DNA from: Verrucomicrobiales bacterium
Lineage (GTDB): Bacteria; Verrucomicrobiota; Verrucomicrobiia; Limisphaerales; JAFMIX01
NCBI GenBank assembly: GCA_031371425.1
Contig: JANMJO010000025.1
Span: 1 to 63,071 of the forward strand
Length of the DNA: 63,071 nucleotides
Direction: 5' to 3'
Part shown: one piece after another, positions 53,894 to 55,756 of the stretch
How positions within the stretch are numbered: position 1 is the stretch's first letter
How the letters are laid out: each line of letters starts with the position of its first letter
The notes under the pieces: model-generated
What the model was told of the DNA's origin: nothing
Seen by the model: the letters and a program-made list of their open reading frames with translations, nothing else
Database searches by the model: none
Made by a program: the position numbers and the translations under genes

Positions 53894-55756
53894 TCACATC
53901 TGCTCGACGGTCTCGATGCCGAGGGTTTCCAAGCCCTGTTTCAAAACCCGCGCCGTCAGGTCGCAGAGCGTGAGCCGGCTAGCGCGCGTGGCGGCATCGT
54001 CGGCTTTGAGCACGGGGCAATTCTCAAAGAAGCGGGAGAAATGGCTGGCAAGATCGTAGAGATAATTGCAGAGATAGTTCGGGCGATACTCCTCCGCCAC
54101 GGCTTCGAGCGTGATGCCGAAGTTGAGCAAGTGCTTGGCAAGCGCGAGTTCCTCCGGCGCGGCGAGCTTCAATTCTGGATTCTGGATTCTGGATTCTGGA
54201 TTCTCCAGTTTCCGGAAAATGCTTTGGATGCGCGCGTAGGCGTATTGGAGATACGGCGCGGTGTTGCCGTTGAACGCGAGCATCTTGTCCCAACTAAAAA
54301 TGTAATCGCTCTGGCGGTTCGGCAGGAGGTCGGCGTATTTCACCGCGCCGAGTCCGATGACGCGGGCGATTTCCCTGCGCTGCGCTTCGGGCAGGTCGCC
54401 GCTCTTTTCGGAAACGAGCTTGAAGGCGCGCTCCTCGGCTTCGTCGAGCAGGTCGCCGAGCTTCACGGTATCGCCGGAGCGGGTCTTGAAGGGCTTGCCG
54501 TCGTCGCCCAGGATTTTGCCGAAGCCGACGTGGATGAGTTTTGTTTTTGTCATCCCGTCATTTTTCCAGCGGGCAAAAGTAAGAAACAGTTTTTTGAAAT
54601 GCCCGGACTGCCGGTCGTCCACCACATAAACAATCTCATCCGGCGACCAAGTCTTGAGCCGGTAATCAATCGTCGCGAGGTCGGTGGTCATGTAGTTGAA
54701 ACCGCCGTCGCTCTTGCGGACGAGCGCGGGGTCGGCCACCCATTCGCCGTCGCGGTTGACGAGGAACGGGTCTTCCTTGGGCGGCAACACGCCATCGCTG
54801 AACACGCCCACGGCACCCTCGCTCTCGCGGGCGATGCTGCGTGTGAGCAGGTCGGCTACGACTTCGCCGAGCCACGGATTGTAAAAGCTTTCGCCCAGTG
54901 TCTGGTCGAACTTCACGCCGAGCCGGCCGTAGATCGTGTCGAACTGTTTTTGCGAGAGCGCAATCATCTCCTTCCAGACGGAAATATTTTCGGCGTCGCC
55001 GGCCTGGAGTTTCACCAACTCGGCCTTGGCGGCTTCGAGGCGCGCGGGGTTGGCATCGCACTCGGCGTTGATGACTTTGTAGAGGCGTTCGAGTTCGGCG
55101 ATGGCGTCGCGGTCGAGCGCGGGGCGGTCGAGGATTTGTTTCCAGCCGAGCAGCAACTTGCCGAACTGCGTGCCCCAGTCGCCGATGTGATTGTCGGTGA
55201 TGACGCGATGGCCGAGCAGGCGCAGCGTGCGCTGGAGAGCGTCGCCGATGCCGGTGCTGCGAATGTGGCCGACGTGCATGGGCTTGGCGACGTTGGGCGA
55301 GCTGAAGTCAATGACCACGGTGCGGCGACGTAGGGCAGGCGTCTCGCCTGCCCGCGCCGATGAAGTTGGCGCAACGACTTCAATGCTCGCGCTGACGCGC
55401 TCGCCGGGCAGGCGAGACGCCTGCCCTACGTTGTCGAAAAACAAATGCTCTCCACGCGCCGCGGCTTCGAGCGTTTGCGCGAGCGCGCCGGGCTTGAGGC
55501 GGAAATTGATGAAGCCCGCGCCGACGATTTCCGCTTTCTCGCACCACTCGGTCACGTCCAGCTTGGCGAGCGTGTCGGTGGCGAGCTGGCGGGGGTTGAG
55601 CTTGCGCTGCTTGGCGAGCGACATCAGCGCGTTGCTCTGGTAATCGCCGAATTTCGGGTCGCACGGGCGGACGAGCACGGCGGAGACATCGGCGTCTGGC
55701 AGCACGGCGAGGACGGCGGCTTGCAGGCGGAGTTCGATTTGTTTATGCGGCAACAC
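53894..55756 (-). CDS. argS: Arginine--tRNA ligase
   Basis: [15 protein letters not shown] (N-terminal Add-1 domain), [17 protein letters not shown] (HIGH), class I core, and the DALR anticodon-binding end [24 protein letters not shown]. GTG start at 55756. The gene contains two repeat-derived in-frame inserts. Confidence 0.95.
   Translation of the reverse strand: [620 protein letters not shown]
54173..54207. repeat. Heptanucleotide array (ttctgga)x4 plus ttctcca inside argS
   Basis: Read directly. It is translated as [14 protein letters not shown] in a surface-loop position of the anticodon-binding domain. Confidence 0.9.
55328..55431. repeat. 104-bp palindromic element with perfect 26-bp terminal inverted repeats, translated in-frame inside argS
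   Basis: acgtagggcaggcgtctcgcctgccc (55328-55353) is the exact reverse complement of gggcaggcgagacgcctgccctacgt (55406-55431). It encodes [35 protein letters not shown] immediately before the catalytic-core start ([10 protein letters not shown]). Confidence 0.85.

What the first reader, a model, noticed from the sequence alone, without database searches (positions are those of the whole stretch)
55328..55431. 104-bp perfect-TIR palindromic element translated in-frame inside the essential argS gene
The 26-bp arms at 55328-55353 and 55406-55431 are exact reverse complements. Each arm contains its own ggcaggcg/cgcctgcc hairpin.

The element is read through as [35 protein letters not shown], inserted between the N-terminal domain and the first strand of the catalytic core ([22 protein letters not shown]). 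The ORF is otherwise an intact ArgRS.

Palindromic selfish elements inserted in-frame in protein-coding genes are documented for Rickettsia palindromic elements. The same phenomenon in this lineage, hitting an aminoacyl-tRNA synthetase, would be noteworthy.
Basis: partly seen in the sequence, partly recalled or inferred. Interest (0 to 1): 0.6.

Follow-up and report, generated by a model that had tools for sequence, protein, structure and literature searches.

The report
In-frame REP hairpin pair in argS
A small selfish DNA palindrome (a pair of GTAG-tagged REP hairpins) has recently landed in frame in a floppy linker of the arginyl-tRNA synthetase gene of a freshwater Verrucomicrobium. It is real and one of about 50 copies that mostly sit inside housekeeping genes, but this behaviour was already described for Verrucomicrobia in 2013.

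Summary
Window 55328-55353 and 55406-55431 are exact reverse complements, each arm has its own 9-bp hairpin, and the 620-aa ArgRS frame reads straight through.

The element is one copy of a GTAG-tagged REP doublet (REPIN-like). Its full unit is AAM-GTAG...CTAC-KTT, at 55327-55432. The 2.9-Mb MAG holds about 100 such arms, forming 41 inverted pairs. At least 27 full-length pairs lie in frame inside named conserved genes: five tRNA synthetase genes, uvrA, uvrB, uvrC, uvrD/pcrA, mfd, ligA, recJ, polA, kdsB and others. None is read in the frame where GTAG gives a TAG stop.

All 40 relatives searched lack the argS insert, including four genomes of the same genus. The insert maps to the 6-residue linker between the N-terminal domain and the Rossmann fold. 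AlphaFold2 models it as a disordered loop (pLDDT below 50).

Seven other Limisphaerales lineages carry inserts in the same loop. Six are clearly palindromic doublets of other GTAG/GTGG families and one is degenerate. The tree needs at least 5 changes to explain this.

The genome has RAYT transposases, but none is flanked by this REP family.

In-frame GTAG REP dimers were catalogued in Opitutus terrae, and REPs inside tRNA synthetase genes in other bacteria (Di Nocera et al. 2013). This is a new member of a known kind.

The parts
53894..55756 (-). argS (arginine--tRNA ligase), 620 aa, single copy, intact frame
   Evidence: ORF. It is 60-87% identical to 104 Limisphaerales ArgRS. PDB 4OBY matches at E = 1e-144 in two blocks, query 11-104 and 143-620. 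No second argS was found in the genome.
55327..55432 (.). Full REP-doublet unit (106 nt): AAM + GTAG...CTAC + KTT. It encodes residues N109-R143 on the minus strand.
   Evidence: The flank logo over 74 element ends gives position -3 = A in 72/74, -2 = A in 74/74 and -1 = A or C in 67/74. The empty kdsB sites of same-genus genomes lack AAA/GTT, so these bases travel with the element.
55328..55353 (+). Left arm: GTAG tag at 55330-55333, then the hairpin GGGCAGGCG-TCT-CGCCTGCCC at 55333-55353
55406..55431 (-). Right arm, the exact reverse complement of the left arm: hairpin at 55406-55426, CTAC at 55426-55429
55354..55405 (.). Asymmetric 52-nt spacer. It holds an inner hairpin-like module (55354-55372, gcgccgatgaagttggcgc) and the reverse complement of the family module AGCGAGCGCGTCAGCGCGAGC (55385-55404).
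   Evidence: Alignment of 38 family copies: the two inner modules are shared among copies and occur in both orientations.
62194..62282 (.). Second copy of the same family in the window, in frame inside kdsB (61714-62541, +). The net insertion is 90 nt relative to same-genus empty sites.
   Evidence: kdsB was named by NCBIfam.

Best explanation
The 104-bp palindrome is one copy of a dispersed family of GTAG-tagged REP doublets. A doublet is two REP hairpins in head-to-head inverted orientation around a 30-80 nt spacer, as in a REPIN.

Shown here:
- The copy entered argS after this lineage split from its four sequenced congeners.
- It sits in the short, variable linker between the N-terminal (Add1) domain and the Rossmann fold.
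- It keeps the frame open.

Inferred:
- It is translated as a roughly 34-residue disordered surface loop that the enzyme tolerates.
- It has no function of its own for ArgRS. It persists because it is neutral or nearly so.
- The family probably spreads as single-stranded hairpin DNA through a Y1/HUH tyrosine transposase of the RAYT type supplied in trans.
- Selection then removes every copy that breaks a frame. Only copies in permissive loops survive, read in one of the two phases without the TAG stop and with a net length that is a multiple of three.
For: **Anatomy matches a GTAG REP doublet.**
- The arm is GTAG plus a 9-bp stem and 3-nt loop, and arms occur in inverted pairs.
- The genome has 104 arms at 4 or fewer mismatches, forming 41 pairs plus 22 solo arms, many at contig ends. 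The control pattern gave 0 matches.
- No target-site duplication is seen, and only AAM/KTT is conserved outside GTAG.

**Copies are in frame inside genes.**
- 27 full pairs lie inside ORFs that NCBIfam names. The list includes ArgS, AlaS, GlnS, ValS, UvrA, UvrB, UvrC, PcrA/UvrD, Mfd (two copies), LigA (two copies), RecJ, PolA, HrpB, GcvP, NuoL, DusB, IspG, KdsB and ArgD. Short or partial copies also lie in PheT and a DinG/YoaA helicase.
- The left arm is read as VG.. in 16 copies, as xR.. in 11 and in the TAG phase in 0. The chance of no TAG phase is (2/3)^27 = 1.8e-5.
- 59% of the arms are spanned by a frame open for at least 80 aa on both sides. Random sites give 64%, and the genome's other REP families give 6-30%.

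**The argS copy is recent and lineage-specific.**
- Residues about 111-140 are missing from all 40 relatives. Same-genus G001-G004 have contiguous empty sites.
- Both arms are identical to the family consensus.
- The family has 95 arms here, against 0-8 in congeners.

**The insert is tolerated.**
- The AlphaFold2 model has mean pLDDT 84.9, with residues 114-140 below 50, between helix 110-113 and strand 146-151.
- E. coli ArgRS has 6 residues at this position.

**A transposase of the right kind is present.**
- C212 encodes a protein matching NF047646 (REP-associated tyrosine transposase) at 93 bits against a cut-off of 80. It is flanked by GTAG REPs.
- A second, partial copy lies on C333.

**Precedent.** Di Nocera et al. 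2013, PMC3733652.
Against: - No RAYT flanked by this particular REP family was found. The RAYTs present are flanked by other GTAG families. The assembly is 94% complete and breaks at these repeats, so the cognate gene may be missing.
- The unit length is not a multiple of three in most genic copies. Core length mod 3 is 0 in 4 copies, 1 in 13 and 2 in 10. Every in-frame insertion therefore needs a matching gain or loss of host bases at the junction.
- In argS the net gain is 93 nt for a 106-nt unit. How this happens in one step in an essential gene is not explained.
- Translation is inferred from frame conservation.
Confidence: 0.85

Rival explanations
1. It is a conventional MITE: a deletion derivative of a DDE-transposase insertion sequence, moved by cut-and-paste through its 27-nt terminal inverted repeats. 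It would not be a REP/RAYT element.
For: The terminal inverted repeats are long and perfect, the unit is about 100 bp, shared inner modules show the whole unit is copied, and no cognate RAYT lies beside any copy.
Against: No target-site duplication appears in 37 copies, and flanks beyond AAM/KTT are unconserved and not direct repeats. Each arm is a GTAG plus short hairpin, the REP signature. No longer element bounded by these ends exists in the assembly: the only pairs 300-6000 bp apart are two separate doublets within one gene.
Confidence: 0.07
2. The insert has been co-opted. Its 26-bp mRNA stem would regulate argS translation or mRNA decay, or the loop would give ArgRS a new interaction.
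For: The mRNA hairpin is very stable (-87.7 kcal/mol). The same ArgRS loop carries palindromic inserts in at least 5 independent lineages.
Against: The same element sits in at least 27 unrelated genes. It is absent from all four congeners and 96 of 104 orthologues. The peptide is modelled as disordered. Inserts in other lineages are unrelated in sequence.
Confidence: 0.05
3. The element is removed before the protein matures, by RNA excision, ribosomal bypass or protein splicing, so ArgRS lacks the 34 residues.
For: A perfect long hairpin could in principle be recognised and cut or bypassed. No expression data were available.
Against: If the element were removed, its phase and length would be free. 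Instead all 27 confirmed genic copies keep the host frame, contain no stop, and avoid the TAG phase. At 34 residues with V...R ends, it has none of the intein splice-junction residues and is far too small for an intein (sequence).
Confidence: 0.02
4. Assembly artefact: a repeat-induced chimera in a fragmented MAG, or an allele present only in a minority of the population.
For: The MAG has 335 contigs and many contigs end in this repeat.
Against: Both flanks are the correct, collinear halves of a single-copy argS, joined in frame. A chimera would not restore the frame. The same is true of 26 other genes.
Confidence: 0.02

Closest known systems
Intragenic GTAG-tagged REPs and head-to-head REP dimers of Opitutus terrae (families GTAG-18 to -20 in the parts read here; Di Nocera, De Gregorio and Rocco 2013, BMC Genomics 14:522, PMC3733652)
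   Same: Both have a GTAG tag next to a short GC-rich hairpin, and inverted dimers 20-100 bp apart that encode 20-30 or more residues in frame. Both occur in the phylum Verrucomicrobiota. The host genes are likewise enriched in DNA repair (uvrA, ligase, helicases) and RNA-binding enzymes. The peptides begin VG... in the same way.
   Different: The stem sequence differs: GGGCAGGCG here, against stems encoding VGPALAAG and similar in O. terrae. The order differs (Limisphaerales). Here the family is as common inside ORFs as random sites are (59% against 64%), whereas the paper states that most REPs are intergenic.
REPINs and their RAYT transposases (Bertels and Rainey 2011, PMC3116915; Nunvar et al. 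2010, cited in PMC3733652 as PMC2817692)
   Same: Two inverted REPs plus a spacer form one long hairpin and are copied as a unit. The family has tens of copies. RAYT genes are present in the genome.
   Different: Classical REPINs are extragenic and flank their single-copy RAYT. Here no RAYT is flanked by this family, and most copies are inside genes.
Rickettsia palindromic elements (RPE; Ogata et al. 2000 Science 290:347, as summarised in PMC10969869 and PMC3733652)
   Same: Palindromic selfish DNA inserted in frame in many unrelated housekeeping genes, in positions compatible with the protein fold.
   Different: RPE-1 is about 150 bp. RPE-4 and RPE-6 are CGTC-tagged, not GTAG-tagged (PMC3733652). 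No sequence relationship is evident. The host is a free-living freshwater Verrucomicrobium, not an obligate intracellular alphaproteobacterium.

Membership tests
GTAG-tagged REP / REPIN | Tetranucleotide GTAG at the foot of a short GC-rich hairpin (stem 5-13 bp, short loop) | tested here: met
   GTAG + GGGCAGGCG-TCT-CGCCTGCCC, with a 9-bp stem and 3-nt loop, on both arms
GTAG-tagged REP / REPIN | Dispersed, high-copy family within one genome | tested here: met
   58 exact hairpins, 104 arms at 4 or fewer mismatches and 95 at 2 or fewer. The reversed-pattern control gave 0.
GTAG-tagged REP / REPIN | Two REPs in inverted (head-to-head) orientation with a spacer, folding into one long hairpin and copied as a unit | tested here: met
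   41 inverted pairs. Inner modules are shared between copies. The fold is -87.7 kcal/mol with z = -7.4.
GTAG-tagged REP / REPIN | A RAYT (Y1/HUH tyrosine transposase) gene flanked by REPs of the same family | tested here: inconclusive
   RAYTs exist: C212 matches NF047646 at 93 bits (cut-off 80), and C333 holds a partial copy. They are flanked by other GTAG families. None flanks this family in a 94%-complete, 335-contig assembly.
GTAG-tagged REP / REPIN | Extragenic location | tested here: not met
   27 full pairs lie inside named genes, and 59% of arms lie inside long open frames. Intragenic exceptions are documented (PMC3733652).
Rickettsia palindromic elements (RPE) | In-frame insertion in many unrelated protein-coding genes | tested here: met
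Rickettsia palindromic elements (RPE) | Membership of the described RPE families (CGTC-tagged RPE-4/-6 or the ~150-bp RPE-1) | tested here: not met
   The tag is GTAG, not CGTC, and the unit is about 100 bp. No sequence comparison with RPE consensus sequences was made.
MITE derived from a DDE insertion sequence | Terminal inverted repeats | tested here: met
   27-nt inverted ends
MITE derived from a DDE insertion sequence | Target-site duplication flanking each copy | tested here: not met
   Flanks beyond AAM/KTT are unconserved and not direct repeats. Comparison of filled and empty sites shows no duplication.
MITE derived from a DDE insertion sequence | A parent IS with the same ends in the genome | tested here: not met
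   No longer unit bounded by the arms within 300-6000 bp. The assembly is incomplete.
Intein / protein splicing element | Splice-junction residues (N-terminal Cys/Ser, C-terminal His-Asn followed by Cys/Ser/Thr) and a Hint fold of at least ~130 aa | tested here: not met
   The 34-residue insert begins VGQ and ends ALR. It is modelled as disordered.

The most novel reading that the evidence does not exclude
The ArgRS linker, like the KdsB loop, may be more than passively permissive. It could be a preferred landing or exchange site.

- Eight Limisphaerales lineages carry an insert there. Seven are palindromic doublets of different GTAG/GTGG families and one (L102) is degenerate.
- Six of the eight start at the same codon boundary after FF[DE]x, which lies just after a T-rich palindrome (TTTTTCGAnAAA).
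- The ArgRS tree needs at least 5 changes to explain this distribution.

This could reflect structure-directed integration by RAYT-type enzymes. It could also reflect cassette-like replacement of one resident REP doublet by another, together with seamless loss. Either would be a targeted mechanism not described for REPINs.
Probability: 0.2. Interest if true: 0.55.

Novelty: new member of a known kind. Interest (0 to 1): 0.3.

Why it matters
The finding adds a clean, well-controlled example of selfish palindromic DNA living inside essential genes of a free-living bacterium. It comes with same-genus empty sites and a family census.

In this genome one REP family shows no avoidance of coding sequence at all. 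It has colonised four tRNA synthetase genes as full pairs (a short copy also lies in pheT) and most of the nucleotide-excision-repair genes.

This is useful for three purposes:
- **Annotation.** These inserts inflate protein lengths and seed spurious similarity between unrelated proteins, as seen.
- **Mapping permissive loops** in conserved enzymes.
- **Studying how REP elements insert.** The frame-keeping junction changes and the repeated use of the same loop are not explained.

It does not change what is known about ArgRS or about REP biology in principle.

Tried and rejected
- **Reads and RNA.** Assembly support, population polymorphism and transcription could not be tested.
- **Rfam.** Only far-sub-threshold long-hairpin look-alikes matched: MIR1437 at 38 bits against 168, and isrG at 27 against 100. 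No known RNA family applies.
- **Cognate RAYT.** PF01797 and NF047646 searches and tblastn found 3 IS200-type TnpA, 1 full RAYT, 1 partial RAYT and 1 weak paralogue. None lies next to this REP family.
- **Autonomous parent IS with the same ends.** None was found.
- **Target-site duplication or a target motif.** Only AAM/KTT is conserved, and the kdsB empty sites show these bases belong to the element. Empty sites of eight genes share no motif.
- **Exact birth event in argS.** It cannot be reconstructed. The 100-nt core (106-nt unit) gives a net gain of +93 nt, so 7 to 13 nt of the native linker K-AAQPK are missing.
- **ORFs left uncounted.** The spanning ORFs on C60, C133, C149 and C316 had no NCBIfam hit and were not counted as genes.
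Full report
**1. Observation**

The window is contig C279 of a 2.93-Mb, 335-contig, 60% G+C MAG that is 94% complete.
- The 26-nt arm ACGTAGGGCAGGCGTCTCGCCTGCCC occurs at 55328-55353 (+) and 55406-55431 (-) with no mismatch. None of 100 shuffles gave a match.
- Each arm carries its own hairpin, with a 9-bp stem and 3-nt loop.
- The minus-strand ORF 53894-55756 (620 aa) is an ArgRS that reads through the element as [34 protein letters not shown].
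- As RNA the region forms a perfect 26-bp stem (-87.7 kcal/mol, z = -7.4). As DNA it gives -50.4 kcal/mol, z = -8.1.

**2. What the element is**

*Arm and copy number.*
- The arm is a GTAG tetranucleotide followed by a short GC-rich hairpin, which is the signature of GTAG-tagged REPs.
- The genome holds 58 exact hairpins and 104 arms at 4 or fewer mismatches. These form 41 inverted pairs with cores mostly 80-127 bp long, plus 22 solo arms, many at contig ends.

*Internal structure.*
- An alignment of 38 copies shows conserved outer arms.
- The spacer is asymmetric with two shared inner modules, found in either orientation. The whole doublet is therefore copied as a unit.

*Ends.*
- Outside GTAG only three bases are conserved at each end: A at 72/74, A at 74/74, and A or C at 67/74. 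There are no direct repeats.
- The empty kdsB sites of same-genus genomes (CGT GAA | GCC GCC) lack AAA and GTT. These bases therefore belong to the element, and there is no target-site duplication.
- The argS copy spans 55327-55432.

*Negative searches.*
- No longer element with these ends exists in the assembly.
- Rfam has nothing above threshold.

**3. Where the copies sit**
- For 30 of the 41 pairs, the longest spanning frame is at least 250 aa and continues at least 60 aa on both sides.
- NCBIfam names the hosts of 27 full pairs. They include ArgS, AlaS, GlnS, ValS, UvrA, UvrB, UvrC, PcrA/UvrD, Mfd (2 copies), LigA (2 copies), RecJ, PolA, HrpB, GcvP, NuoL, DusB, an RlmI-like methyltransferase, IspG, XdhA, a NasA-like reductase, a rhamnosidase, a TrhP-like protein, ArgD, a methyltransferase and KdsB. 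Short or partial copies also lie in PheT and a DinG/YoaA helicase.
- The profile match is often split exactly at the insert.
- The left arm is read as VG... in 16 copies and as (S/R)RAG... in 11. It is never read in the phase where GTAG gives a TAG stop. The chance of that is (2/3)^27 = 1.8e-5.
- 59% of this family's arms lie in frames open at least 80 aa on both sides. Random 24-nt sites give 64%. The genome's five other GTAG families give 6-30%.

This family shows no avoidance of coding sequence. Every surviving genic copy is frame-compatible. That is the argument that the inserts are translated rather than removed.

**4. The argS copy is recent and lineage-specific**
- In all 40 relatives searched the ArgRS match skips query residues about 111-140.
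- In the four same-genus genomes the two halves abut.
- Both arms equal the family consensus.
- The family has 95 arms here. Same-genus G001 and G002 have 0, G003 has 1 and G004 has 8. Identical 24-mers also occur in a different family of the order (G034, 24 arms). This fits a recent burst in this lineage and a patchy distribution.
- There is no second argS in the genome.

**5. Position in the protein**
- Against E. coli ArgRS (4OBY) the query aligns 11-104 to 12-105 and 143-620 to 112-578. About 37 residues therefore replace a 6-residue linker.
- In 96 of 104 Limisphaerales orthologues the linker is K-AAQP(K/R).
- An AlphaFold2 model built from a 49-sequence alignment has mean pLDDT 84.9 and pTM 0.87. 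Residues 114-140 fall below 50. They lie between the end of the N-terminal domain (helix 110-113) and the first Rossmann strand (146-151), ahead of HVGH at 161-164.

The insert is modelled as a disordered loop at the hinge between the domains.

**6. Junctions**
- The GTAG...CTAC core is 100 nt and the unit with AAM/KTT is 106 nt, but the net gain over the conserved linker is 93 nt. So 7-13 nt of the native linker are missing.
- The same holds elsewhere. The net gain is +90 for an 89-nt unit in kdsB, +99 for 101 in uvrC, +108 for 119 in glnS, +102 for 118 in pcrA and +87 for 109 in ligA.
- Core length mod 3 among genic copies is 0 in 4 copies, 1 in 13 and 2 in 10.

Insertion is therefore not a precise addition of a fixed unit. 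The in-frame copies we see needed matching host-side changes. For essential single-copy genes these must have arisen with the insertion. I cannot explain this step.

**7. Same loop, other lineages**
- Seven other Limisphaerales ArgRS carry an insert in the same loop.
- Six are clearly palindromic doublets of other families: GTAGTGGGACAGGC in L064 and L070, GTGAGTAGCTGCGACG in L052, GTGGCACAGGCC in L085, GTAGGACAGGCG in L086 and GTGGCACGGGCG in L130. The seventh, L102, is degenerate.
- Including ours, six of the eight start at the same codon boundary after FF[DE]x.
- On an ArgRS tree built without the insert columns the trait needs 6 changes, and at least 5 are forced by well-supported branches. 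Carriers are sisters of empty alleles: L021 with L022, and L052 with L060 at 99% support.
- A second site (reference residue 399) holds palindromic inserts in at least three lineages (L102, L105, L117); a fourth insert there (L114) was not examined for palindromy.
- In KdsB, 2 of 80 further orthologues (L222, L262) have unrelated palindromic inserts in the same loop, a few residues away.
- In LigA, G000 and G003 share an insert of this family at one site while G004 lacks it.

The simplest reading is a high flux of REP insertions, filtered by selection to the few permissive loops. A targeted or exchange mechanism is not excluded.

**8. Transposase**
- The genome has five PF01797 hits.
- Three are IS200-type TnpA (C47, C286, C287).
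- C212 is a RAYT: NF047646 at 93 bits, cut-off 80. It is flanked by GTAGCGCGGACA REPs.
- C333 holds a RAYT cut by the contig end, next to GTAGCACCCGCG REPs.
- None is flanked by the GTAGGGCAGGCG family.

The mechanism, mobilisation by a RAYT in trans, is inferred from family resemblance and not shown.

**9. Comparison with what is known**
- Di Nocera et al. 2013 (PMC3733652) defined GTAG-tagged and CGTC-tagged REPs and found head-to-head dimers 20-100 bp apart.
[quoted passage not shown] There, dimers encode 20-30 residues, for example VGPALAAGREQRARLPAAGERPPY.
- The hosts there are enriched in DNA repair genes (both uvrA, the ligase, helicases). REPs also lie inside tRNA synthetase genes of other bacteria.
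- The MITE review PMC10969869 summarises the RPE precedent.
- No paper on Limisphaerales repeats was found.
- Earlier notes of this scan describe the same behaviour in other Verrucomicrobia and Kiritimatiellae genomes, and the kdsB copy in this window. I reached the same reading from my own data before seeing them.

**10. Verdict**

The element is a real, recent, in-frame REP-doublet insertion in a disordered linker of ArgRS. It is a new family and a new host order for a documented phenomenon. Two features are unexplained:
- how the frame is kept when the unit length is not a multiple of three;
- why the same codon boundary in argS is used repeatedly.

Noticed in passing
G000:C333, minus strand, first ~760 nt from the contig end (not in the window): A partial RAYT gene runs in one open frame through two REP hairpins and a (CCTTCAA)x4 tandem repeat into the helicase part of priA (Walker A GVTGSGKT). 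priA is then interrupted by a single in-frame TAG (...SSGERHD*WHKIRQGRARIVIGARSAVFAP), and conserved PriA sequence continues in the same frame. An earlier first-reader note (e1-4656202) reports another lone in-frame TAG in a GT2 gene of this genome. Candidates are amber read-through, a pseudogene or an error.
   Followed up: no
Host proteins on G000 contigs C26, C27, C227, C242, C263, C299: Other short peptide motifs recur in unrelated housekeeping proteins: EPPHVGCY, IRNPKSEI, TFNLQPSTF, EEGRMKNE and SRGNEAQ. They suggest further families of in-frame intragenic repeats in this genome.
   Followed up: no
Whole genome G000: There are at least six GTAG-hairpin families: 296 perfect GTAG hairpins against 87 for the reversed-genome control. 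Only the GTAGGGCAGGC family is as frequent inside long ORFs as random sites are (59% against 64%). The others are 6-30% genic.
   Followed up: partly
G034, G006, G004, G003, G038 (relatives): The identical 24-nt REP arm occurs with 0 mismatches in a different family of the order (G034, 24 arms). A variant with compensatory stem changes (GCATCTTGC) is amplified in G038. Same-genus G001 and G002 have none. The distribution is patchy, from differential amplification or horizontal spread.
   Followed up: no
L102, L105, L117 (ArgRS orthologues), reference residue ~399: A second loop of ArgRS carries unrelated palindromic in-frame inserts in at least three lineages, for example CGCCGAGCACC...GGTGCTCGGCG in L105. 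A fourth insert at the same site (L114) was not examined for palindromy.
   Followed up: no
L029 and L056 (ArgRS orthologues), reference residue ~233: An identical 26-residue non-palindromic insert (QKEESEAETAAWAKNPNDIAVDIEAR) is present in two ArgRS orthologues. It was not examined further.
   Followed up: no
window 55193-55366 and other REP loci (output): REP-encoded peptides create spurious protein similarity between unrelated genes. The ArgRS query hit 14 other loci of its own genome through the insert alone, at E = 1e-4 to 4e-8. This is a trap for annotation and clustering.
   Followed up: yes
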